Positions 2,258 to 62,720 of a stretch of 64,000 nt of DNA are shown one piece after another; position 1 is the stretch's first letter, and the number at the start of each line of letters is the position of its first letter. This DNA comes from Octopus vulgaris (taxonomy: Eukaryota): assembly GCA_951406725.2 (NCBI GenBank), contig OX597826.1, positions 26,474,001-26,538,000 on the forward strand. The letters are read 5' to 3'. A program made the position numbers and the translations under genes. The notes beneath the pieces are model-generated. The model made no database searches. It saw nothing but the letters and a program-made list of their open reading frames with translations, and was not told the DNA's origin.

Positions 2258-2646
2258 CTTTTCTACTTTAAGCACAAGGCCCGAGATTTTTGGGGAGGGG
2301 GACAGTCGATTAGATCGCCCCGAAATGGTACTTAATTTATCACACCAGAAAAGATGAAAGCGAAGTCGACCTTGGCGGAATTCGAGCTCAGAACGTAAAG
2401 ACAGACAAAATACCTATTTCTTTACTACCCACAAGTGGTTAAACACAGAGAGAACAAACAAGGACAGACAAACGGACTAAGTCGATTATATCGACTCCAG
2501 TGCGTAACTGGTACTTATTTAATCGACCCCGAAAGGATGAAAGGCAAAGTCGACCTCGGTGGAATTTGAACTCAGAACGTAGCGGCAGACGAAATACCGC
2601 AGAGCATTCCGCCCGGCGTGCTAACGTTTCTGCAAGCTCGCCGCCT
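2258..2646 (-). mobile_element. SINE family B partial dimer
   Basis: Same dimer junction (tacctatttctttactacccacaag) as at 41.6 kb, inverted. Confidence 0.78.
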
Positions 2647-4641: not shown

Positions 4642-5179
4642 GTTATTATTATTATTATTATTATTATTAAAATGTGATGAATTAATAGAATAGGGAGAGT
4701 CTCGAAAAGTGCCTTCTCATTACGTTCTCAGTTGAGATCTCGAGGACAAACTTGCTTTTCATCCTTATTTCTTTATTGCCCACAAGGGGCTGAACGTAGA
4801 GGGGACAAACAAGGACAGACAAAAGAATTAAGTCGATTACATCGACCCCAGTACGTAACTGGTGCTTAATTTATCGACCCCAAAAGAATGAAAGGCAAAG
4901 TCGACCCCAGCGGAATTTGAACCCAGACGAAATACTGCTAAGCATTTTGTCCGGCATGCTAACGTTTCTGCCAGCTCGCCGCCTTTTTACCCTTATCACG
5001 TCAAAGTAAAAGTACCAGTCAAATACTAATCCCACCCCCTCAACATTAAATTAAAATTTAGAACCAATTATTATTATCAGTGAGCTATCAGAATCTTTAG
5101 AGCCTCAGAGAAAATACCTTGTGATATTCCTTATGTTTCGTAACATTCTATATTCAATACTGCCGGGGTCAATTTTCCT

Positions 5180-21713: not shown

Positions 21714-22807
21714 TGTATGTATGTATGTATGTATGTATGTATGTATGTATGAATATGTGTGTGTGTATGTGAGTGTATCTCCATAAACATGTAAAACAAT
21801 CAAATATATATTATTTTCCTTCTGAAGATATCATACTCAGGTCCTATAAATTTAATATTTACTTAATGCTTACTGAACATTAAGTGAAACAGCTGTAAGG
21901 GATGATGATTAATTTGCTGTTAACAATAAACAATGGTTAACTTCTCAATCTCCATTTTCTTTTTCTTCTCGTGTGTACATATGTATGTACATATATATAT
22001 ATATGTTGTATATGTATATATGATTTCGATTATCATTATTATTATATCAGAATCTCCGAAGCAAAGTAAGTTTAAGATACTAAATGCAATATATAGTTTG
22101 TAATGTAAATTAGAAATACACAGGCAGAAATGCCGCTCTCATTCACAATTAAAGATCACGCGTTATTATCAGGAACTATAATTTTCCCAGTGGGTTTTGA
22201 TACCCATTTAGTAGCGAGTAAGTTTATAGATAACTGAATCAAAATGTACTGAAGAAATTATAAATATTTATATTGAATGATCTAAAAAAATGTATATTAA
22301 TATGTGAAGGATACTCTACTATATTTTAATTGCTAATTCAGTCCCATCAACTAGGTACTATGATCAATGTGCACAAAATCCTGGTTATGCTAACAGCGAA
22401 AAGTGAATTAAATATATTGGTTAGACATCGTATGATTTTAAGTTAGATCAAAGAATTATTTCATCTGTGAATAAATAAATTTGAGATTGTAAACTATAAT
22501 TGATGATGTGAAGAGGACATTCCCAAAACAGAACTAAATTTTCAGAAAGGAATGACTTTGCATCGTCAACAAATGCGAGAACTCGCTTGCAAACAAATGA
22601 CAAATGATGAACATTTACTTTATAATTAGAGGTGCCTCATCCCAGGTTTTCTTTAATTGTGTTAAAATTCTGACGAAACTGTGGATCACAAATGTGTAAA
22701 GAAAGAGTTTCATAATACGAGGTACCACTACAAAAATCACACCTAAATATCACATGACAACAACTTCTAACAAACGACGCACGCAACAACGTACTAAAGG
22801 ATATGTT

Positions 22808-28229: not shown

Positions 28230-28725
28230 CATCTACTTCCATTTCTGTAAGCTTATTCTATTTCACCTCTCACTCTAGACCTCTCCACTATTAGTTTACT
28301 GCTAATTTCTTTCTTTCTCCTCCTTCTTTTTCTATAAACTACCTTTGACGTTATATCTACTAACGATTAAAAAAATCTTGTTAGCGTTCCCTTCATCATA
28401 TACACAGTCATCACATTCTGTTAAAATGTCTTATTGATGTGTTTGGTTTCTTTCTTTCCTTGATGAGAAGATTGCATTGTTTTACACCATTTTGTTCCGT
28501 CTTCGAAACATATGTCGGAAGTAAAATAATTTGAATAACACCGGCGTTTAACTCCATTAATTTATCTATATATATATGTGTACATGTATATATATATATA
28601 TATATAAAATTGCATATGCATTAATTTTTATATACAAACTGATGACAGAATGAAGGATGAACTTTATATGATATATTTTATGTATTTCTGTACGCATTTG
28701 AGTACAAATATGTGCGTGTGTGTGT

Positions 28726-30216: not shown

Positions 30217-32560
30217 AATCAGGTGTCCTTTTGATCCCAAAAGATGAACATTGCACGCTGTTGTTTCGGACACTTCTCCTGGAGTTGACGGGCACGAACG
30301 ATCATATCAATTGTGCCTCGAGAAGTTCGAATACCACACTGAGACTCAGGGAGTACGTTTTCTGCGAGGATGAGGAAGCGATTGGGTAGGATACGGGTGA
30401 AGATCTTACTTCCAATACTCAAGAGAGATGTCCCGATAGTTGTTGCAATCCTCTCAGTCTCCCTGCTTGTAGATGGTGATGATAGTTGCATCGCGGAAGT
30501 CGTTCGGGGGGGGGAGGGTTCTTGCTTTTCCAGATCCTGATGATAAGGAGCATCAAATGATTTGTCAGCTGAGGACCTCTGTGCATGAAAAACTCAAACG
30601 GGATGTTGTCTGGTCCTGGAGCTTTCTCCGGCATCATGTGCGCAAGTGCTTTGTTGATCTCATGGCTTGAGGGTGGCAGGGACATCCGATTGCGGATGGG
30701 GAGCTGTGGGGTGTTTTGGAGGAGATCATCAGGAGTGCGTATGTGGTCGTTAAGTATGCACTCGAAATGGGACTTCCAGCGATCGAGGTTTCCATGGGTG
30801 TCGGTTATAGTAGAGCCAGCTGCGTTCTTCAGGTCATCCACTAATGACCTTGTAGGGCCGAAGATCTTGGTTGCAGCATAAAAGCTGTGCAATGGTCCGG
30901 ATAGTTTTGAGTCTCCCATGGCACAGATATTATGAGCTTCTCAAATCCCTCGCTGGCATTCCGTTGATGCTTGCTGGTGTTTACTTTTGTTCTCCGCAGT
31001 GGCATGGTTCTCGGAATTTGGTTTAGAAAACATGGGAGATGGTTTCATCATTCTCGTCAAACCAGTCTTGGTCCTTCTTTCGGGCAAGGCCGATTTCCTC
31101 CTCGGCGACAGCGGTCATTGCTTCACGAAGGCTGGTCCAGCGATTCTCAATAGAGCTTGGCTCTGGGAGGTTCATCAGATGTATCTCAATAGATTCCCTG
31201 AAGTCTTGGGATGCCTATGAGATCCGGTGTTTGGCGCAATCGAAGCGTCAATACGGGATACTTCCTGTGACCCGCTTTGGTGGACTGCAGATGTGATGGT
31301 AAGAAATAAGAAGGCGGTGGTCCATCATCTGTATCAGGCATGGAGCGGGTGATACGTACATCTCCTCTGTCACTGTCACTGGATCTTGTTAGAAAGTGGT
31401 CGAGAATGTACCAGTGTTTAGACAATGGGTGTTTTCAGGTTTTTTTGTCGGGTAGGGAGACGAAATATGCAGTTGGTCATGACGAGTTCGTGCTCGCCGT
31501 AAGGCCCAAGAGGAACTAGCCATCGGCATTGCATTTCCCAATGGCGTGGTGACCAAGAATGCCATTCCACAAACAATGGTCACTGCCGACTCTGCCGTTA
31601 AAGTTCCCCAGCACGACGTGTTTGTCATGTGCAGGTACTGTCTGGATGGTGCGGTCTAGCAGGTTGTAGAACGAAGTTTTGATGTCGTCTTCAGATGTGA
31701 GTGTAGGGGCATACACAGATATCAGCCTAAGGAATCTGTCCCGAAAGAGTGAGATCCGAATAGTCATCAGGCGCTAACTGACAGCAGTTGGGACGAGTCT
31801 GTGTTGATCCAAGAGTTGCGTTTTGATGGCAGAGCCAACTCCATGGATGCGTGGTTCATTAGCATTCTTCCCCTTCCAAAATATGGTGGATTTGGAGCCA
31901 GCTTCTCTGATGCTGCCTTCTCCAGGAAGCCTAGTCTCGCTCAAGTCTGCCACATCGATGTTGAAGCCGTCAAGTACCTTGCTGACGTGGGCTGTATGTC
32001 ACTCTGTTCGATTAATGTCACTCTTGTCCTGAAGTGTGCGGATGTTCCAGGCCACGAAATTGAGAAGTTGTGAAACAGAGGATTTAATTGAGTTCAGACC
32101 GCTAAGTGGGAGGTCCGCCAGCAACGGTATGCTGGCTAGATCGAGTTGCCGTGTCCGATGTTTACACCACCTTTTCTAGGGTCTTCCCCTTGAGGGGTGG
32201 GCTGCGGCTATCCTAAGGGCCCAGCCCAGTCACGACTCTAGCTGCCGAACTCCAATATCACGGCTATTCACTGGAGAGCGACTGAGATCCGCCGCCAATG
32301 TGTGGTCACGGACTAGAGGCTTCCAGCTTTCCAGACCTGCCTCTGGTCCCCACGATACCATCGACATTGGGCGTTTTGAGACAGATTAGAAAGATGAAGG
32401 AATTCATGGAGTAAATTGTTTATAAGTGATCGTGTAAATAAGTGATCGTGGCTGCACTTGGCCAGGAATGTCTCCATGGCGGATCAAGTATCAATGGAAC
32501 ACACAATCTTTTGGAATCACTGGAACACGCAAGCTCTTCCACCACAAGGGACGACCATCA
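30217..32560 (-). mobile_element. Decayed RTE-clade LINE (5' UTR, AP endonuclease, start of RT)
   Basis: Minus-strand NFVAWNIRTL, DLSETRLPGEGS, MTIRISL..ISVYAPT, LGNFNGRVG, KHWYILDHFL, KAPGPDNIP and LPESQCGIR..RGTIDMI..ARQLQEKC. RTE-like 5' motif ccttgtggtggaagagcttgcgtg near 32530-32550. Multiple frameshifts. Confidence 0.9.
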
Positions 32561-40495: not shown

Positions 40496-41174
40496 GTGAG
40501 TTATAGAGTAAACAAATTTTTACAGTGGGAACCGTAGTAAAAACAGGGAGAGAGAAATTGTATTATCAACAATAAAAGGGTAAAATAAATTAATTATTAA
40601 TTAATTTCACCAATTAGTGTTCAGTATGTAAAAGGACCATTCAAGGTATATTTAAAATATTACGTTATATAATTAGGGCTCAGTAAAATAATATACTTTA
40701 CCAGACACTGAAACTTTTAGAAATAGCAGCCAAAAAGTTTTATTAGCTATTTCTTCTACTATAAGAAAAGTCTCCCAGATAGTGTTTACTCAAAAATAAT
40801 TCACGCAGATATGGAGGGAAAAATAACAAATTATCACATGTACAAAGATCATTTGAGAACGTTAACGTTTCTAGATTAGTTGAATTTAAAACTCAACACA
40901 ATACAATTTCTCTCTCTCAGTTTTTACTACGGTTCTCACTGTAAAAATTTGTTAACTCTATAACTCACGTGGATGGAAGCGGGAGGAATGCAGAGCCTCA
41001 TTCGTACTTTTTGAATTTGCTGGTACTGGCAGTTGAAAATGGTTTGTCTGAGATTACTCATATCAGATGGGTATGTTCGATTTTTAGTGCTCTCAAATCC
41101 AAATATAAGAAATATTGAGCTGACGAAGGAAGTGTTGAGTTTTAAATTCAACTAATCTAGAAACGTTAACGTTC
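40496..41174. mobile_element. Hammerhead-bearing inverted/permuted element, copy 1
   Basis: Interleaved inverted pairs ~40496-40564/40900-40968 and ~40857-40899/41132-41174; homologous to the 59 kb element. Confidence 0.75.
41115..41174 (+). ncRNA. Type I hammerhead-like ribozyme truncated just after its cleavage site
   Basis: TTGAG-CTGACGA-A-GGA-agt-GTTGAGT-tttaa-ATTCAAC-taa-TCT-A-GAAA-CG-ttaa-CGT-T. The missing stem I 3' strand (CTCAA) is seen in the inverted copy near 40852-40857. Confidence 0.65.
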
Positions 41175-41402: not shown

Positions 41403-41823
41403 AAGGCGGCGAGCTGGCAGAATCTTTAGCACGGCGGGTGAAATGCTTGACGGTATTTCGTCTGCCGCTACGTTCTGAGCTCAAATTCCGCCGAGGTTGA
41501 CTTTGCCTTCCATCATTTCGGGTTCGATAAATTAAGGACCAGTTACGCACTGGGGTCGATGTAATCCACTTAATCCATTTGTCTGTCCTTGTTTCTCCTC
41601 TCTGTGTTTAGCCCCTTGTGGGTAGTAAAGAAATAGGTATTTCGTCCGTCTTTACTTTTGGAGTTCAAATTCTGCTGAGGTAGACTTTGCCTTTCATCCT
41701 TTCTGGATCGATAAATTAAGTACCAGTTACTCAGTGGAGTCGATGTATTCGACTTAATCCCTTTGTCTGACCTTGTTTATCTCGTCTATGTTTAGATAAA
41801 CATATTGTGGGCAATAAAGAAAT
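41403..41823 (+). mobile_element. SINE family B partial dimer
   Basis: A full unit followed directly by a second unit starting at ggtatttcgtc. Confidence 0.8.
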
Positions 41824-42449
41824 ATAAATATACATCATGCATAAAAATGTATCATACAAACTATGAAATCATCGTTATTTACAGACCCATATTGTGTGCT
41901 TACAAATGTACCAAGACGTGATATAAATAAATGCACATTACGATGTGTGTTTCTTCCTGTACAGCGAAGGTTAATATCTCAGCACATTTATATTTTTAAC
42001 CAATTTTAAAGTTCCTCTTTTTAAAAATAAATCTTTCTTGAATATGTGTGGGGTAAAAACCTTAGCGCCTCCTACAGGGTACGTGAGGTCAAAAGAAGTT
42101 ATAATATCCAAGTGTTATGTAGAGAGCGATTAAATTCATAATTGGCTCATGTATACAACAATTTCGTTCACACGCACGCACACACACACACACACGTATA
42201 CACACACATACACAAACACACACAGACACACACATATACAAGCTCATACACAATGATATACTTCTGCTTAATATATAAGCATACTACACACACATATATA
42301 TATATACATATATACACATATGTATATTTGTATATATTTATGTACGTATATTAGTGATCGGTGTAATATATACGAATATATACAAATTATAAGCTGATGC
42401 ATAGATACGTGTATCTCTTTAGTATATGCAAATTACACACACACGCATA

Positions 42450-42533: not shown

Positions 42534-43190
42534 ACAAAAGAAAAATTCTAATGCCATATATGCCGAAAAAAAGACAAAATTGTCAATAACCATTATAATT
42601 TATGCGCCTCGAAACAAACCGATAGAAATTTCTAAAAATTCCGTTATTACCGTATTGGTCCCAATTTCGGGGTTAATTCATAAGAAGTTTTCGAAAAAAG
42701 AAATTTTTCCTACATTGGTTGTAAATTTAATAGTGTTCACTTCCGGATTCTCTCTCTCTGTGAAAGTTTCTAGATCGAATCACACGTGTCTCGAGATGTG
42801 CCGAAGATTTTCTATCTTTTATATATTTGGGGTACTTAGGTCTGCTCAGGACTTAGTGCTTGCTTTTTCCATGGGTATGAGTAAGTATTCCATTTATGTC
42901 TTACGTATTTATCGCTGAAGAGGGGAAAATTCTTATGAATTAACCCCGAAATTAGGACCAATACGGTAATAATGGATTTTTTAGAAATTTCTATCGGTTT
43001 GTTTCGAGGCGCATAAATTATAATGGTTATTGACAATTTTGTATTTTTTTCGGCATATTTGGCATTAGAATTTTTCTTTTGCCCTTATTTTGTAAGTTAT
43101 TAATAAATTTAACCTTTAAATGTATTTTTTTATATGCTGGCCATTGATAAATTTTTTTTTTCGAAAAATAAAATTTATCCTACATTAGTT
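42534..43190. mobile_element. Hammerhead-bearing inverted/permuted element, copy 2, inside (AT)n
   Basis: Inverted arms ~42534-42690/42925-43082; direct 30 bp redundancy 42691-42720/43161-43190; (AT)n on both flanks. Confidence 0.8.
42909..42969 (+). ncRNA. Type I hammerhead ribozyme
   Basis: Stem I TTATCG/CGGTAA; core CTGAAGA; stem II GGGG-aaa-ATTC-ttat-GAAT-taa-CCCC; GAAA; stem III ATT(a/g)-ggac-CAAT (fully paired in the inverted copy); predicted cleavage after ATA at 42963. Confidence 0.8.
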
Positions 43191-50724: not shown

Positions 50725-51485
50725 AACGGCATGATGCAATACATCTTATTTCTTTACTGCCCACAAGGGGCTAAACACAGAGAGGATAAACAAGGACAGA
50801 CAAACGGATTAAGTCGATTATATCGATCCAGTGCGTAACTGGTACTTATTTAATCTACCCCGAAAGGATGAAAGGCAAAGTCGACCTCAGCGGAATTTGA
50901 ACTCAGAACGTAGCGGCGGACGAAATACCGCTAAGCATTTCGCCCGGCATGCTAACGATTCTGCCAGCTCGCCGTCTTCTTGATGCAGTACCAAGCAATG
51001 GTTCTCATGGCTTATGATCTTAACTGATTGGATATTTCGTTTGGTGTAGAAGATAGGCTACGGCAAATATTCTGCTCGATACGGCAGATTTGCTTGTTAG
51101 TTGCTTGGCCTTAACCAGTCGATCTTACCTCTTTGTGACTGACTATATGTGCATCTCTGATCACGAGTAGGAGTAGTAGGAGAGCATCATAGCCATGTGT
51201 TGTGAGAGATTCTTTGGAGTTTGGATAATGTATCCCTGGAAATATGGGTCTTTCATTCATCGTTAAACAACCCTTATTCAGGGAAATTTTGATTGGGATG
51301 GGCTACTTGATCTGAAGAAAATTCTTACCGGACTCCAATTTCAAGGTCATACGCTGTTTATTTTGATATGGTATCATTATGTTGCGCACATATGGTTGTG
51401 ATGCATGTGCCTGGGCTACTCTTATGAGACAGGTGGTCATTCCAGCATCATTTTGATAGCATCTGTTGCTCATGTTCTCTCGCTC
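50725..51485. mobile_element. Older copy of the ~540 bp (AAT)n-embedded element, with a SINE inserted near its left end
   Basis: tgatgcagtacc...gatcttaactgattgga...ctctcgctc-(AAT)n matches 51575-52118. Confidence 0.7.
50745..50976 (-). mobile_element. SINE family B
   Basis: Reverse complement of 55683-55917; probable TSD tgatgca(a/g)tac at 50732-50742/50981-50991. Confidence 0.8.
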
Positions 51486-51576: not shown

Positions 51577-52118
51577 GCCCTGATGCAGTACCATGCAGTG
51601 GCTCTCATGGCTTCTGATCTTAACTGATTGGAAGTGCTATCATGTACATTGTTTTGTATAAAAGATGGGCTACAGCAAATATTCTGCTCAATACCACAGA
51701 TTTGCTAGTCAGTTGTTTAACCTTAACCAGTTGACCATGTCCCTTGGTGGATGACGATATGTGCATCTCTGATCACGAGCAGAAGTAGTGGGGGAGCATC
51801 ATAGCCATGTGTTGAAAGCAATTCTTAGAGGTTTGGGTAATTCACCTTAGGAAACACGGGTGATTCGTTCAACGTCCTTAAACAATTCAGGGACCTTTTG
51901 AGCGGGATGGGCTACTCGACCAGAAGAAAATTCTAACTGGGCCCCACCTGCAAGGTCATGTGCTGTTTATCTTGATATGAGATCACCATGTCGCGCACAT
52001 ATGGTTGTGATGCATGTGTCTGGTGTACCCTTATCATACAGGTAGTCATGATGGGTATACTGGGCTTTGTATATTTTACCCCAGTGTCACTTTGATGGCA
52101 TGCACTGCTCTCTCACTC
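51575..52118. mobile_element. ~540 bp non-coding interspersed element embedded in (AAT)n
   Basis: Sharp boundaries with (AAT)n on both sides; collinear with a second copy at ~50725-51485. Confidence 0.75.
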
Positions 52119-52165
<47 letters not shown>

Positions 52166-52181
52166 TAATAATAATAATAAT

Positions 52182-54208
52182 ATATCACAAAGGCTGAACA
52201 AGCACCTGGACGAAAACAAACTGTTCCCAGAAGAGCAGAAAGGATGCCGCAAAGGCTCATATGGCTGTAAAGATCAACTAATGATTAATAAAGCCATAAC
52301 TAAAGACAGCCACAGAAAGAAGAAAGGCCTCAGTATGGCCTGGATTGACTACAAAAAGGCGTTTGAAAGCATCCCCCACACATGGATCCTCGAAACACTA
52401 GCCATTAACAAAGTAACACCAACAATCATAAAATTCATAGAGCACTCTATGAATAAATGGCAAACAGTCCTACACCTCCAAACAAAAGACGGACTCATGA
52501 AAACCAAAGACATCCCCATTAGAAGAGGAATATTCCAGGGAGACACGCTCTCTCCACTCCTTTTCTGCTTGGCACTGTCACCTCTATCTGATATGCTAAA
52601 TAGAACTGGATGCGGATATAAATGTTACGGGAAAACGATCAGCCACCTTTTATATATGGATGACCTAAAACTATACGCTGCAAATGACAAACAGCTGGAA
52701 ACACTATTAAAGACAGTTCATGGATTTACCAAAGAAATAGATATGAAATTTGGATTAGAAAAATGCGCCAAAGTAACCCTGAAAAGAGGAAAACTAGTTA
52801 AGAGTAACAACATCACACTAGATAAAACAAATGAAATAAAAGAATTAGACCAAAGCCAAACTTACAAATACTTAGGAATCCATGAACTAGATAAGACACA
52901 ACACACACAAATGAAAGAGAAAATAAAAAAAGAATATTATAGACGAGTTAGATCAATACTAAACACAGAGCTCAATGCTAAAAACAAGATAATAGGTATC
53001 AACACTTTAGCTGTCCCAGTTATAAGTTACAGCTACAATATCCTTAACTGGACACGAAATGAACTGACCAAAATAGATAGGAAAACAAGAAAAATAATGA
53101 CAGGATCTAGGATGCATCACCCAAAATCTGACATAGAAAGACTATATATACAACGTATAGAAGGTGGTAGAGGCCTTATACAGCTGGAAAACTACTATAA
53201 AATAACCACCATAGGACTGCAAAAATATCTACTTCAGAAGGAAGGAAAACTGATCCAGATAGCGGCAAAACACGAGCAAAACAAAAAACTGTTCTCAGTA
53301 TTTAAGGAAGCTGACAAATACAAACAAGAAATCATACCACCGAATAAACATGAAGAAGAAGAAGATGAAGAAACAACAAAAGCTATAAAACAAATGAAAT
53401 CCAAACTAAAAATAGAACAGCAACGAACCATGATAAAACGATGGCAAGAAAAACCCCTTCATGGTAAATACTGGACTAAACTAAACGCAAAAGAAATAGA
53501 CAAAGAAAAATCCCAGCAATGGTTGAGAAGCTCAGGACTCAAAGCAGAAACAGAGGGATTTTTAATTGCAGCACAAGACCAAAGCCTCCCCACCAGAAAT
53601 TACCAAAAACATGTAATAAAAAGAAATATTACAAGTAACTGCAGAATATGTGGAGATGGACAAGAAACAATAAATCATATTATCTCTAGCTGCCCAGTCT
53701 TGGCTAAGAAGGAATATATTCAGAGACATGACAGAGTTGGAACCTACATACATTGGAAGCTATGCCAACATTATGGAATAACAACAGAAAAAAGATGGTA
53801 TAGGCACACACCAGAAAAGGTCACAGAAAACGAGAAAGCAACCATACTCTGGGATATGCCGATACACACAGATAGAGAAATTAAGGCCAACAGACCAGAT
53901 ATAGTTGTCAGAGATCATGAAAAAAAAAATGCTTTCTAATTGATGTATCAATACCGGCTGATGACAACGTGTCTCTAACAGAAATGGAGAAACTCTCAAA
54001 ATACAAAGACCTGGAAATAGAGGTAACTAGAATGTGGAATCTGAAAACAGAAACAATTCCTATCATAGTAGGTGCATTAGGCATGATAAAAAAATATTCA
54101 GACAAATACATAACAAAAACACCAGGACTTACAAACACATATAACATACAGAAAATTGCACTACTAGGCACTGCACACATCCTACGCAGAACACTTTCCA
54201 TACAATAA
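52182..54208 (+). pseudogene. RT/RLE polyprotein, N-terminally truncated, single frameshift in the A10 run at 53920-53929
   Basis: About 580 uninterrupted codons, then a frame change that rejoins ORF 53969-54208. The ORF-track start at 52014 is upstream non-coding sequence plus AAT repeat. Confidence 0.88.
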
Positions 54209-55594: not shown

Positions 55595-56140
55595 GAAAAT
55601 GAAAAGTTACAAGATCTTTTGGGATTTCTCTATAATGACGGAACACACAACTGATGCAGGTATACCGGATATGGTATACCTGCTTGGCGAGCTTGGCAGA
55701 AACGTTAGCACGCCGGGCGAAATGCTTAGCGGTATTTCGTCTGCCGCTACGTTCTGAGTTCAAATTCCACCGAGGTCGACTTTGCCTTTCATCCTTTCGG
55801 GGTAGATTAAATAAGTACCAGTTACGCACTGGGGTCGATATAATCGACTGAATCCGTTTGTCTGTCCTTGTTTGTCCCCTCTGTGTGTAGCCCCTTGTGG
55901 GCAGTAAAGAAATAGGTATACCAGATATGATCATAAAAGACAAAATAAATAAACGGTGTAAGATCAAAGATTTTTCAATCGCTTCAAATAATAGAGCTGA
56001 TACTATGAAGTTGGAAAACCTGTTAAATATCAGGATCCAGCCAAAGAAATGAGAAGATTGTGGAAGACAATGACAATTACTTTTCCTGTAGTAATTGGTG
56101 CAATTGGAGCAACACCCAAAATTCGATGTAAAAGACTGAA
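55595..56140 (+). mobile_element. RLE endonuclease-domain fragment interrupted by a SINE
   Basis: KIFWDFSIMTEH...PDM before the SINE; PDMIIKDK...EMRRLWKTMTITFPVVIGAIGATPK after it. Confidence 0.7.
55683..55917 (+). mobile_element. SINE family B, young copy
   Basis: ggcgagc(t)tggcagaaacgttagcacg...gagttcaaattcc (B-box)...gcctttcatcctttcggggt...gtaaagaaatag; probable TSD aggtatacc(g/a)gatatg at 55658-55673/55914-55929. Confidence 0.8.
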
Positions 56141-58926: not shown

Positions 58927-59003
58927 GGGGAAACGATACGTAGCTGTATGGTAAGATACTTGCCTCCCAACCACATGGTCTGGGTTCATTCCCTTTGCGA
59001 CTG

Positions 59004-59054
<51 letters not shown>

Positions 59055-59240
59055 TAACAATGAGGGTCTTTGCAACAGGTTGCTAGACCACATACAGAAA
59101 GCATTAGAAATAGCAGCCAGACGACTGTTATTTCTTTTACTACAATAATAAGTGTCCCACAGACAAACGGTATTTGTAACTCACTATGGCAAAAAAAAAA
59201 ACAACGAAGAAAAACAACGAAATCAAACAGTGTCCGGTCA

Positions 59241-59300
59241 ATTATGGACGCATACGTTTCTGGATTAGAATCAGGGATTCATTTCCTTCATCAACATAAT
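59241..59300 (-). ncRNA. Type I hammerhead-like ribozyme (inverted copy)
   Basis: Reverse complement of the motif at 59647-59704, with stem III ACG-tatg-CGT and a GTC site. Confidence 0.7.
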
Positions 59301-59646
59301 ATTCCGATAAATAAATCTAGAAATGCTAGGAAATCTTACCCTCCATATTCCGAACATGCGAAATCGGGGCATACAGAAGCTAATCAGCATATCCACATTT
59401 ATATAGACAAGTGAATTCGTATCTCCCTCCAGAATTTCTCCCACGTGAGTCACAAATAATACTGCCGAAAATGAATTCGTAGTTCCGTCATATGGGGAGT
59501 AAAATAATCAATACAGATAAAGGGTGAAATATAATTCATTTAATGAAATCAACAAATTTCACCAAGTAGTTTTTCGGTATGGAAAAGGACCATATTCGGT
59601 ATGGAGGGTAAGATTTCCTAGCATTTCTAGATTTATTTATCGGAAT

Positions 59647-59704
59647 ATTATGTTGATGAAGGAAATGAATCCCTGATTCTAATCCAGAAACGTGCGTCCA
59701 TAAT
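59647..59704 (+). ncRNA. Type I hammerhead-like ribozyme (variant core)
   Basis: Stem I ATTATG/CATAAT; core TTGATGA plus A; stem II GGA-aat-GAATC-cct-GATTC-taa-TCC; A-GAAA; stem III ACG-tg-CGT; GTC site at 59698. Confidence 0.7.
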
Positions 59705-60238
59705 TGACCGGACACTGTTTGATTTCGTTATTTTTCTTCGTTTTTTTGCCATAGTGAGTTACAAATACTGTTGTCTGTGGGACATATTTTTGTAGTAAAA
59801 GAAATAACAGTCGTCTGGCTGCTATTTCTAATACTTTCGGTATGTGGTCTAGCAACCTGTTGCAAAGACCCTCATTGTTATAATCATATATAATTTTACC
59901 GAATATGGTCCTTTTCCATACCGAAAAACTACTTGGTGAAATTTGTTGATTTTATTAAATTAATTATATTTCACCCTTTATCTGTATACATGTGATACCT
60001 ACAATCACTACAGTAACATATATAGCTTAAACATAGAAAGAAGTCACTATTTTCCTATCATCGTAATCGTTTGTATGGTCTTATCTCTTCTTGTACCCTA
60101 TTTCTATCATCTATACTAAGCATCGCATTCAACATTTCAGATAATTTTGAATCTCAGAACATAGTCCTTCCGTAACGCATCCTCTCTCTGTTTTCGCTAG
60201 AAGCATTAAGTAACAAAATTTAAACTGATCACCAAGGG

Positions 60239-60312
60239 CACCATCTTTACCATTCTGAACTGAGCTTGCTAAAGCCACCATCATTACCACTCTGAAATGA
60301 GTTTGCTAAAGC
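60239..60312 (+). repeat. 37 bp tandem duplication
   Basis: caccatc(t/a)ttacca(t/c)tctgaa(c/a)tgag(c/t)ttgctaaagc occurs twice. Confidence 0.85.
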
Positions 60313-60843
60313 CACGGGCGCTGTCACTGATTTTCTTGTCATATTCAACGTAATTGGATCCAATGCAAATTCCTTGTAATCAGAGCCAAGCGTGTTATCT
60401 GGTTAGATACTTTATGTTTCTATAGATAGCTAAAATTAAGCATCCGCTTCTGTGGAATTGACAATAATTGATGGAGAAGAATTCCATAGTATCCCGTACA
60501 GAAAATAAAGTAACTAATTTTAATAAAATAACGTATATATAGTAGTTTTGTTTCTAAAATATCTCTGGAGATATTTTTGAAGATATACGTGTCTGACAAA
60601 CATAATGGTAATAGATTTATGTACGAGTATATATATACATATAATCCTCACACGACATAAATACAAATAAGTAAATATATATATATATATATACACACAT
60701 ATAAATATATGTACGTATTTATACATATGAATATATTTATATGAATATATATATATATATAGATACATAGAAATATATAGATATAAATATATATATATAG
60801 ATAGATACAAACATATACATATATATATATACATATATATATG

Positions 60844-60874
<31 letters not shown>

Positions 60875-60987
60875 GTATTTATATGCATATATGTCTACAC
60901 ACGCATACACATATATAACCAACCATACACACATATGTATATGTCTATCTAGCTAACCGTTTCTGTCTCAGTCTCTATGACCCTCCC

Positions 60988-61060
<73 letters not shown>

Positions 61061-61074
61061 TTATATACAAACTT

Positions 61075-61758
61075 AGAGTCAGTGTGTTTGGCCTGGGAAT
61101 CCACATGAGCAACGACGCAACGTTCCATGTGCACAGTGTTCAAATGGCAGCACTATGCAGGTAGGTGGCAGGTTGGATCCTTAGATCCTTCAGGACCAGG
61201 AACAGGAACACAGTGCTTCTGCTTTGGCAAAGCTTTGTCCTTAGTCGCCCGGATTACTGTTCGCGGTGTGGTCCCCATATGGTACAAAACTAATTGCGGC
61301 ACAAGAAGCGATCCAACGCTTAAAGAAGATAGACTCTGGAAAACACATGGGCTACTGTGAGAGATTGAAGGAACTGGGACTCTACTCCGTAGAGAGGAGA
61401 CGTGAGAGAATACATAAAGGATTTGGCTCCAAATTTCGGAATTGAAATCTACAATAATTCCCGAACTGGACGGCACTGCACTGTACCAAAGATCCCATCT
61501 CCATCGAGGATATGTACTGAATATAGTAATTCAGAACATCAGTGATCTGCAGGGTGTAGACATGAAAGTCTTCAAAAAACTTTTAGACAGTTTTTTTCAT
61601 CTGCAGTTCCGGATGAATCTACATCGCGACAGGAGACACAAAGAAAGCGGCAACGTCCAACTCGCTACTTCACCAGAAGCAATACTAGATAAAATCCCCG
61701 GATGCAGTAATGGTGGCGCACCAGCATGGCCTCATCCTCTGGCTGACACCCATTAAAT
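61075..61758 (+). mobile_element. CR1-type LINE 3' fragment
   Basis: [15 protein letters not shown]...GWILRSFRTRN..VLLLWQSFVLSRPDYCS and ERLKELGLYSVERRRE are typical of CR1-clade RT C-termini; stops and frameshifts are present. Confidence 0.82.
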
Positions 61759-61846
61759 ATAGAAGATAAAAGATTTAAGTTACACATACATACATAAATA
61801 TGTGTACATATGTATGTATATGTATCCATATGTTCACGTATAATTG

Positions 61847-61884
<38 letters not shown>

Positions 61885-61927
61885 TAGATAAGAAAGTTGG
61901 TTTGTGAAAGCACGTGGTTGAATATAT

Positions 61928-62246
61928 AGAAAATAGTAAAAAGTGAAAAAACTACAGAAGGCTTAAAGGTTAAAAAATATATATATTTGCGTCAATATGT
62001 CTGAAGAATATTAAAAAAATTTGTTTTCTTACAATGACATAGTTTAGAAGAAAGACCGGTTTCGCGTTTAGCTTTTCAAATTTCTTACGACGTAAGAAAT
62101 TTGAAAAGCTAAACGCGAAACCGGTCTTTCTTCTAAACTATGTCATTGTAAGGAAAAAAATTTTTTTAATATTCTTCAGACATATTGACGCAAATATATA
62201 TATTTTTTAACCTTTAAGCCTTCTGTAGTTTTTTCACTTTATACTA

Positions 62247-62252
<6 letters not shown>
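61928..62252. repeat. Near-perfect 325 bp palindrome (162 bp arms, 1 nt loop at 62090)
   Basis: Arms are reverse complements with only a few mismatches; right flank is (CT)n(AT)n. Confidence 0.92.
62091..62133 (+). ncRNA. 3' half of a hammerhead ribozyme (stem II, GAAA, stem III, GTC), mirrored on the minus strand
   Basis: CGT-aag...taa-ACG-C-GAAAC-CG-GTC; the CTGANGA part is absent at the hairpin apex. Confidence 0.5.
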
Positions 62253-62342
<90 letters not shown>

Positions 62343-62498
62343 ATATACATACATACATACATACATATATATGTGTGAGTATTTGTATGTGTGAATGCAT
62401 AATTGAATGTGTCTGTGTGTGTGTGTGTGTGTCTTAGAATATTCCTCGAAATGGGAGATGTGCAAACTTAATTATCTGTGCGTGTCTGAGTGAGACCA

Positions 62499-62720
62499 TA
62501 CTGCAGGGTTGGGCTGAAAGTCATTGACTTCAAGGATGTCGCGAAGGGCCTGGTTGGAGTCCCTCTCTTTCGCGTCATTTTACAGACCTTAGAAAAACTG
62601 AAGGACTGCTGCAACAAGTGTGTGAATCTGAGAATGGATTATGTTGACTAAAATCATGAAAAACCAATCCTCCTGTATTTTCTTTTAGCCAAAGCCAGGA
62701 AGTTTTCAACCCCCATCGTA
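62499..62720 (+). mobile_element. Internally deleted mariner relic
   Basis: EKLKDCCNKCVNLRMDYVD* resembles a mariner transposase C-terminus. Loose TIRs (gggttgggctgaaag / ttttcaaccccc) end in TA. Confidence 0.55.

What the first reader, a model, noticed from the sequence alone, without database searches (positions are those of the whole stretch)
61928..62252. Perfect 162 bp-arm hairpin whose apex cuts a hammerhead at the base of stem II
The palindrome has a 1 nt loop. Each arm begins CGT...ACGC-GAAACCGGTC, a ribozyme lacking CTGANGA. It looks like the limiting case of the same mechanism (cDNA fold-back, or two cDNAs stopped at the same point). It could extrude a cruciform, or form long dsRNA that is an ADAR/Dicer substrate if transcribed.
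Basis: partly seen in the sequence, partly recalled or inferred. Interest (0 to 1): 0.7.

Follow-up and report, generated by a model that had tools for sequence, protein, structure and literature searches.

The report
Zero-spacer head-to-head Penelope insertion
The mirror-image stretch is real and consists of two back-to-back copies of the end of a common repeat, likely pasted in by a Penelope-like jumping gene that copied the same RNA twice; it holds only half of a hammerhead-ribozyme motif, so it is predicted to be catalytically dead genomic debris of a known kind.

Summary
The palindrome is real: 61928-62252, apex A62090, 159 of 162 pairs match. Each arm is the end of a multi-copy repeat. 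The left arm alone carries a further 38-nt family 'tail' (61890-61927), and both ends sit in TA-rich microsatellites. That is the published signature of head-to-head Penelope-like (PLE) insertions. The arm's start matches the 3' half of the Hydra-1_Obim type I hammerhead at 23 of 25 positions (by eye), so the half-ribozyme reading stands. No CUGANGA box lies on the sense strand, so the locus should not self-cleave. The one-sided tail favours two cDNAs primed from both target strands and joined by a 3-nt microhomology over simple fold-back. Low-depth contig cover across the apex in 3 of 4 runs argues against an artefact. No host gene was found in the window; editing and dicing are untested. Verdict: a new example of a known structure. 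One lead remains: two other inverted pairs in this window also start just 3' of CUGANGA.

The parts
61854..61889 (.). Left target: (AT)n run grading into (AGAT)n microsatellite
   Evidence: sequence
61890..61927 (-). 38-nt one-sided extension ('tail') of the repeat family, present only beyond the left arm; distal boundary set by the start of the microsatellite (+/- a few nt)
   Evidence: table 7: contigs that run past the arm end at 62252 continue into this sequence in X2 (13 contigs, agreement 0.72, two letters differ) and X4 (8 contigs, 0.85); only its first 25 nt are shown there
61928..62089 (-). Left arm: inverted copy of the repeat's 3' end (long-end copy, continuous with the tail)
62054..62064 (-). 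3' half of a type I hammerhead motif (C-GAAA, palindromic stem III ACCGGT, GUC cleavage triplet), left-arm copy
   Evidence: comparison with File S2 of PMC8557442
62087..62093 (.). Apex micro-palindrome ACG-A-CGT; family contigs with a different upstream sequence already match from 62087, so the ACG is shared with other copies (3-nt microhomology, inferred)
   Evidence: table 7: loose ends before 62087 in 14, 14, 6 and 4 contigs of X1, X2, X4, X7
62091..62252 (+). Right arm: copy of the repeat's 3' end that stops at the family's short end (no tail)
   Evidence: X1: 19 contigs go from 62252 into (AT)n
62116..62126 (+). 3' half of a type I hammerhead motif, right-arm copy; no CUGANGA partner on this strand
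62127..62141 (+). Predicted 3' strand of hammerhead stem I and adjacent bases shared with Hydra-1_Obim (T-rich run, then CTAAACTAT)
   Evidence: by-eye comparison
62253..62326 (.). Right target: (CT)16 followed by (AT)n
   Evidence: sequence

Best explanation
This is a head-to-head pair of copies of one repeat end, likely made in a single insertion by a Penelope-like (probably Hydra-type) reverse transcriptase/endonuclease that would nick both strands of a TA microsatellite and prime two cDNAs on the same RNA. Step 1 (shown): the arms share minority family alleles, so they come from one template lineage. Step 2 (shown anatomy, inferred cause): one arm ends at the family's short end and the other about 38 nt further out, the spacing of the two reverse-transcription start sites found in vitro for a PLE. 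Step 3 (inferred): both cDNAs stopped at the 5' base of hammerhead stem II, just before reaching CUGANGA. Step 4 (inferred): their 3' ends annealed through ACG/CGT and repair filled in the duplex, leaving no spacer. Consequence (shown for sequence, predicted for activity): neither arm has the CUGANGA box and the remaining half-motif would be locked in a 162-bp duplex, so the locus is predicted not to self-cleave and is most likely inert debris a few million years old.
For: Multi-copy family: 1591, 710, 557 and 198 contigs laid on one arm in four runs, with summed depth 1e4-1e6 against 0-60 on the apex-only bins (not a copy number). One-sided tail and TA targets match Fig. 2 and the text of PMC8557442; Hydra elements insert into (TA)n. 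The PLE of the green anole cleaves and extends both target strands and starts at two sites whose spacing is the tail (PMC11167929). Arm start matches the Hydra-1_Obim ribozyme 3' half at 23 of 25 with one 3-nt gap. The reverse complement of the upstream loose end matches the sequence just 5' of that ribozyme at 14 of 16 (X2), 13 of 16 (X1) and 12 of 16 (X7); p about 0.005 for 14 of 16 after 3600 placements. Both arms have C at 62212/61968 where 82-94% of family depth has A. Palindromes at inverted PLE junctions are described in PMC3846280.
Against: No sense-strand CTGANGA continuation among the 24 of 151 loose-end rows shown, so the stop at the base of stem II is inferred. No PLE coding sequence was linked to this family: none among 116 window ORFs scanned, and six family motifs found no match to it in the Craig 2021 supplement. 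Hydra-1_Obim ends about 30 nt after stem I, this family about 115 nt, so it is not that element. The same CATA-ACG junction recurs in four runs, which could mean it is inherited from a master copy and not made anew. At 62153 the arms differ at a site where both letters are common in the family (G 20-25% of depth). Target-site duplication cannot be read inside microsatellites.
Confidence: 0.62

Rival explanations
1. Single-cDNA fold-back (self-priming): one PLE cDNA with the tail stopped at ACG-N-CGT, folded on itself and copied itself; the endonuclease or repair trimmed the second arm at the short end.
For: Self-priming is the published reading of palindromes at inverted Penelope junctions (PMC3846280). 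The apex is a micro-palindrome and the arms share rare alleles. PMC8557442 suggests that the tail comes from endonuclease-mediated resolution.
Against: A 2-3 bp stem with a 1-3 nt loop is a poor primer. The copy would have to stop 38 nt before its template's end, exactly at the family's short end. A short-end cDNA cannot supply the tail by copying itself. In vitro the tail equals the distance between two start sites.
Confidence: 0.15
2. Spacer loss: the insertion began as the family's common form (longer inverted partner holding the whole ribozyme, joined to the truncated copy) and later lost the roughly 50-nt spacer by deletion between two ACG direct repeats.
For: The common junction has ACG before the apex base, and the inverted partner would carry a second ACG where its shared part ends (inferred). 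Microhomology-mediated deletions are common in Penelope copies (PMC3846280).
Against: The spacer sequence with CTGANGA was not seen. Deleting a spacer makes a less stable, perfect palindrome (general knowledge). No run showed a joint at this locus (table 5: none).
Confidence: 0.1
3. A foldback DNA element (MITE) with 162-bp terminal inverted repeats and no interior; the hammerhead likeness is chance.
For: Palindromic shape and TA flanks. The half-motif alone arises in 336 of 5000 shuffles. Rfam gave no hammerhead hit.
Against: The two ends differ by a family-encoded tail. The apex is low-depth while the arm is high-depth, so the palindrome is not the replicating unit. The 23 of 25 match to a PLE ribozyme flank is far beyond the bare motif. 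Rfam also missed complete hammerhead-like motifs at 59653 and 59294.
Confidence: 0.06
4. A fold-back read or assembly artefact.
For: Only contig-level support; no listed piece spans the whole stretch; X2 has zero depth over the apex-only bins; one of the runs may be the source of the assembly.
Against: Three arm mismatches; the mirror stops at the family's short end and does not include the flanks; apex-only bins 62070-62083 are covered at low depth in X1 (60), X4 (12-19.5) and X7 (5.5-6.4), two studies and three organism labels.
Confidence: 0.03

Closest known systems
Head-to-head inverted insertions of endonuclease-positive Penelope-like elements (Adineta Pen2/Pen2a/Pen3a, PMC3846280, passages read; general scheme in PMC8557442 Fig. 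2 legend, passages)
   Same: Inverted 5'-truncated copy joined at the 5' end, palindrome at the junction, 30-40 nt tail on one end only, AT-rich target.
   Different: Here both arms are equally truncated, there is no spacer, no ORF and no complete pLTR; the palindrome is the whole insertion (162-bp arms against 18-38 bp junction palindromes in Adineta).
Hydra-1_Obim and the Hydra clade of C-terminal-EN PLEs (PMC8557442; passages, supplement parts 2, 52, 53)
   Same: Hammerhead 3' half and stem I flank (23 of 25), upstream flank on the inverted partner (12-14 of 16), (TA)n targets.
   Different: Different stem II region, stem III of 6 nt against 9 nt, about 115 nt against about 30 nt between stem I and the element end; no coding sequence tied to this family.
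Poseidon of the green anole, PAc (PMC11167929; passages and second half of the main text)
   Same: Two reverse-transcription start sites a tail-length apart, both target strands nicked and extended, AT-rich targets; the tail here is 61% A+C and PAc starts in an AC-rich stem-loop.
   Different: Different clade and host; the in vitro work does not describe inverted products or where cDNAs stop; the tail here folds only weakly (-0.7 kcal/mol).
Metazoan non-LTR retrozymes and minimal PLE hammerheads (PMC7229834, passages; PMC4209133, parts 1-2 of 4; bioRxiv 10.64898/2026.07.22.740005, part 1 of 5)
   Same: Type I hammerhead with short palindromic stem III in a non-coding, AT-rich repeat; PMC4209133 already notes hammerhead pairs 100-700 bp apart on opposite strands.
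   Different: No tandem units and no complete ribozyme at this locus; whether the family is a retrozyme or the end of a coding PLE was not determined.

Membership tests
PLE head-to-head insertion | Inverted 5'-truncated copy joined 5' end to 5' end | tested here: met
   Arms diverge from the apex in the ribozyme's sense direction
PLE head-to-head insertion | 30-40 nt family tail at one end only | tested here: met
   38 nt at 61890-61927; first 25 nt seen as a family continuation in X2 and X4; absent on the right
PLE head-to-head insertion | Insertion into AT-rich or (TA)n sequence | tested here: met
PLE head-to-head insertion | Target-site duplication | tested here: inconclusive
   Both flanks are microsatellite
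Autonomous PLE (Hydra clade) | RT plus C-terminal GIY-YIG ORF linked to the repeat | tested here: not met
   No ORF in the insertion; 116 of 159 filtered window ORFs scanned gave only LINE-type RVT_1 hits at 30222 and 52011. Linkage elsewhere in the genome could not be searched (no whole genome held)
Type I hammerhead ribozyme | GAAA box, stem III and UH cleavage site | tested here: met
   62116-62126; same gaa-ac-cg-gt-c layout as Chlamys-2_cBra in File S2
Type I hammerhead ribozyme | CUGANGA box and 5' strand of stem I upstream on the same strand (this locus) | tested here: not met
   Absent from both arms
Type I hammerhead ribozyme | CUGANGA directly upstream of CGT in other family copies | tested here: inconclusive
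   Not among 24 of 151 loose-end rows; loose ends are cut at 30 letters; depth step of 4.5-12-fold between bins 62084-90 and 62091-97 hints that many copies differ from the window just there
Type I hammerhead ribozyme | Self-cleavage | not testable with these tools
   No assay; predicted inactive at this locus
Non-circularly permuted (knotted) hammerhead | C, G and S segments on one strand with three complementary stems in any order | tested here: not met
   Any-order scan: none on the sense strand; one weak 11-bp GSC arrangement on the antisense strand of tail plus left arm. The scan found 3 of 5 control motifs, so it is not fully sensitive
Non-LTR retrozyme | Tandem units each with a complete type I hammerhead | tested here: not met
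   Single inverted pair at this locus; family-level organisation not testable here
MITE / foldback DNA transposon | Identical inverted ends, palindromic element as the multi-copy unit | tested here: not met
   Ends differ by the tail; apex depth 0-60 against arm depth 1e4-1e6

The most novel reading that the evidence does not exclude
The hammerhead core sets where Penelope-type reverse transcription stops: cDNAs end at the 5' base of stem II, so inverted arms across unrelated families start within about 10 nt of CUGANGA, and this palindrome is the case where both cDNAs stopped there. A large family may even spread from a master that has only the half-ribozyme on its sense strand, fused to an antisense complete copy. 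That would give the PLE hammerhead, dispensable for insertion in vitro, a structural role in forming inverted insertions.
Probability: 0.22. Interest if true: 0.55.

Novelty: new member of a known kind. Interest (0 to 1): 0.22.

Why it matters
By itself the locus is ordinary PLE debris. Its use is as a clean footprint: equal truncation, a one-sided tail and a 3-nt junction homology in one 363-nt insertion fit a twin-priming route to the inverted PLE structure, whose origin is still open in the papers read. If arms in many families start just 3' of CUGANGA, that would tie the hammerhead fold to cDNA termination, a testable role for a motif whose function in PLEs is unclear. Such palindromes would also be ready ADAR substrates if transcribed (PMC5625713, passages, reports high near-perfect dsRNA potential in octopus and heavy editing of lizard Penelope), but nothing here shows that this locus is transcribed.

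Tried and rejected
No further copy of the arm or tail in the window by blastn or nhmmer, and none of the upstream loose-end motifs in a family context. Pattern scans gave 0 hits: genome contigs, viral contigs, metagenome contigs. Rfam: 0 hits at gathering score in the window; 62 sub-threshold hits in 59000-62400, mostly miRNA hairpin models matching any palindrome or microsatellite, no hammerhead family. No RNA holder listed among the runs; this says nothing about expression. Family motifs found no matching element in the supplements of PMC8557442 (three chance hits in other elements) or PMC13282606 (the repeat library is not in the held file). Look-ups of earlier findings near this place or by sequence gave nothing. 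The CTGAAGA at 62001(+)/62179(-) is on the antisense strand and forms no type I fold. A native long perfect stem II as the apex was rejected because family depth falls to 0-60 left of 62084. Paper searches for Penelope+hammerhead+truncat+stem II (5 papers), Penelope/twin priming/inversion/microhomolog (42 papers, 15 listed) and octopus+hammerhead ribozyme (5 papers) showed no title or abstract on a stop point at stem II; listings only, and most subscription papers are not in the library. bioRxiv supplements could not be seen and may list related retrozymes.

Full report
Observation. With A62090 as centre, 159 of 162 pairs are complementary and pairing fails from position 163. The mismatches are 61939/62241, 62023/62157 and 62027/62153; the inner 62 pairs are exact. 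It folds at -239.7 kcal/mol as RNA (z = -40, 0 of 100 shuffles as stable) and -174.9 kcal/mol as DNA with flanks, with a 3-nt loop. The window is 28-49% GC by 2-kb bin and full of AT microsatellites. It looks like octopus DNA; that label is my inference from composition and from the match to an Octopus element below, and no call named the organism.

The arm is a repeat. No second copy lies in the window and no whole genome is held. I therefore laid contigs of four public runs (X1, X2, X4, X7; four organism labels, three studies; 4 of the 24 listed) on 62070-62255. 1591, 710, 557 and 198 contigs were laid, with summed depth of 1e4 to 1e6 over the arm. This is not a copy number, but it is thousands of times the depth over the apex-only bins 62070-62083: 60 (X1), 0 (X2), 12-19.5 (X4), 5.5-6.4 (X7). 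So the arm is a multi-copy family, and the palindromic junction is rare or single-locus and is covered in 3 of 4 runs from two studies. The spanning records were not listed individually, and one run could be the source of the assembly.

Outer ends. Contigs leave the arm at 62252. In X1 the consensus of 19 goes into (AT)n. In X2 (13 contigs, agreement 0.72) and X4 (8 contigs, 0.85) the consensus continues with the first 25 nt of the sequence that flanks the left arm in the window; the X2 version differs at two letters, and X2 lacks the apex, so this comes from other loci. No such row was among the six shown for X7. The 38 nt at 61890-61927 are thus a family extension present on the left arm only, and both ends lie in TA-rich microsatellite. 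PMC8557442 describes exactly this for PLEs: an inverted 5'-truncated copy at the 5' end and a 30-40 bp tail often at one end only (passages). PMC11167929 shows in vitro that a PLE protein nicks and extends both target strands and starts reverse transcription at two sites whose distance is the tail.

Is it a hammerhead half? The bare motif is weak: 336 of 5000 shuffles of the arm contain Y-GAA, a palindrome of 6-10 nt and H, and Rfam finds nothing. The stronger evidence is a published relative. File S2 of PMC8557442 lists the type I ribozyme of Hydra-1_Obim. By eye its 3' half and flank match 62117-62141 at 23 of 25 positions with one 3-nt gap. One search gives about 1e-6 for 23 of 24 after 324,000 placements; for 23 of 25 this is of order 1e-5 (scaled by hand). 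The elements are not the same family: stem II differs and Hydra-1_Obim ends about 30 nt after stem I, this repeat about 115 nt. At this locus there is no CUGANGA on the sense strand of either arm; the CTGAAGA at 62001/62179 is antisense. An any-order scan for knotted hammerheads, prompted by earlier notes of this scan, found none on the sense strand and one weak 11-bp arrangement on the antisense strand; it recovered 3 of 5 control motifs.

What lies upstream in other copies. Of 151 loose-end rows 24 were shown, and none has it. The best-supported upstream continuation starts before 62087 (14, 14, 6 and 4 contigs) and ends in CATA; variants occur before 62085 and 62094. Its reverse complement matches the sequence just 5' of the Hydra-1_Obim ribozyme at 14 of 16 (X2), 13 of 16 (X1) and 12 of 16 (X7); the X4 consensus is too short to compare. 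For 14 of 16, p is about 0.005 after 3600 placements. I read it as an inverted partner copy that starts some tens of bases upstream of the ribozyme, so other insertions of this family are also head-to-head, with a longer partner. Because those contigs match from 62087, the ACG of the apex is shared with them: the junction there and here is ACG-N-CGT. The prediction is therefore neither confirmed nor refuted.

One template. At 13 sites compared, the arms agree at 10; both carry C at 62212/61968 where 82-94% of family depth has A. The left arm has two letters not listed as family variants, and the right arm has the less common G at 62153. Three differences in 162 give a JC distance of 0.019; with the calibration of 0.09 per 25 million years quoted in PMC13282606 (passage) this is about 2.6 million years (0.5-7.5, Poisson), if the arms were identical at birth and not homogenised since.

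Mechanism. Most likely both strands of a TA run were nicked, two cDNAs were primed on the same RNA at the two start sites, both stopped at the CGT that would begin stem II, and their 3' ends joined through ACG/CGT. The anatomy is shown; each enzymatic step is inferred. Fold-back, the published reading of Penelope junction palindromes (PMC3846280, passages), remains possible but needs a 2-3 bp primer stem and a second event to stop the copy at the short end. Loss of a spacer between two ACG repeats from the common form would give the same apex. A MITE and an artefact fit poorly, for the reasons listed under the rivals.

Context in the window. Three other inverted pairs carry hammerhead-like motifs. 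At 42535-43081 one arm has CTGAAGA (42915) and the other starts 3-8 nt after it. At 40857-41174 one arm has CTGACGA (41120) and the other starts 5 nt after it. At 59043-59987 both arms keep the whole motif. With the present locus that is 2 seen and 1 inferred of 4 pairs starting just 3' of the box: too few to call a rule, but the basis of the novel case. My paper searches (listings only) showed no report of such a stop point.

Function. Pfam on 116 of 159 filtered ORFs found LINE-type reverse transcriptases at 52011-53936 and 30222-30593 and no host gene, so there is no evidence that the hairpin lies in a transcript; short exons would be missed. If transcribed it would be a good ADAR substrate by general knowledge and by PMC5625713 (passages). 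Cruciform extrusion was not tested.

Earlier notes of this scan describe many head-to-head hammerhead insertions with a short-end/long-end rule in this genome and pointed me to the Hydra clade. They are unchecked AI notes and are not counted as support; I tested the end rule and the Hydra likeness for this locus only.

Verdict. Observation confirmed, interpretation partly supported, a new example of a known structure. Interest 0.22; the stem II stop-point idea would merit about 0.55 at a probability of about 0.22.

Noticed in passing
window 42535-43081: Inverted pair (156 nt, 96%) with a hammerhead-like motif at 42915 on one arm; the other arm starts 3-8 nt after the CTGAAGA box and runs into (TA)n at its outer end.
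   Followed up: partly
window 40857-41174 and 40496-40968: Interleaved inverted pairs; hammerhead-like motif at 41120 (CTGACGA, long stem II, palindromic stem III); the inverted arm starts 5 nt after the box.
   Followed up: partly
window 59043-59987: Inverted and partly tandem repeat (316 nt at 93%, 91 nt at 98%) with a type I hammerhead-like motif in both arms (59653+, 59294-), both with TTGATGA in place of CTGATGA and A opposite A at the base of stem II.
   Followed up: partly
window 21822-21900 and 28460-28520: Two further single type I hammerhead-like motifs; the first has 56 nt between the two boxes, the second has TTGATGA.
   Followed up: no
window 52011-53936: 642-codon open frame with RVT_1 (E 1.8e-25) and zf-RVT, a non-LTR retrotransposon.
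   Followed up: no
window 30222-32000 (- strand): Broken non-LTR retrotransposon frames; weak RVT_1 hit at 30222-30593.
   Followed up: no
window 2410-2642, 4766-4985, 41403-41840, 50747-50977, 55686-55919: A ~230-nt SINE-like interspersed repeat in many copies, 80-95% alike.
   Followed up: no
window 61080-61760 and 62420-62650: Higher-GC blocks on either side of the insertion that look like LINE and mariner remnants (recalled likeness; no Pfam hit).
   Followed up: no
window 62126-62127 (table 4): In about 1-9% of family depth an A is inserted right after the GUC cleavage triplet, in all four runs.
   Followed up: no
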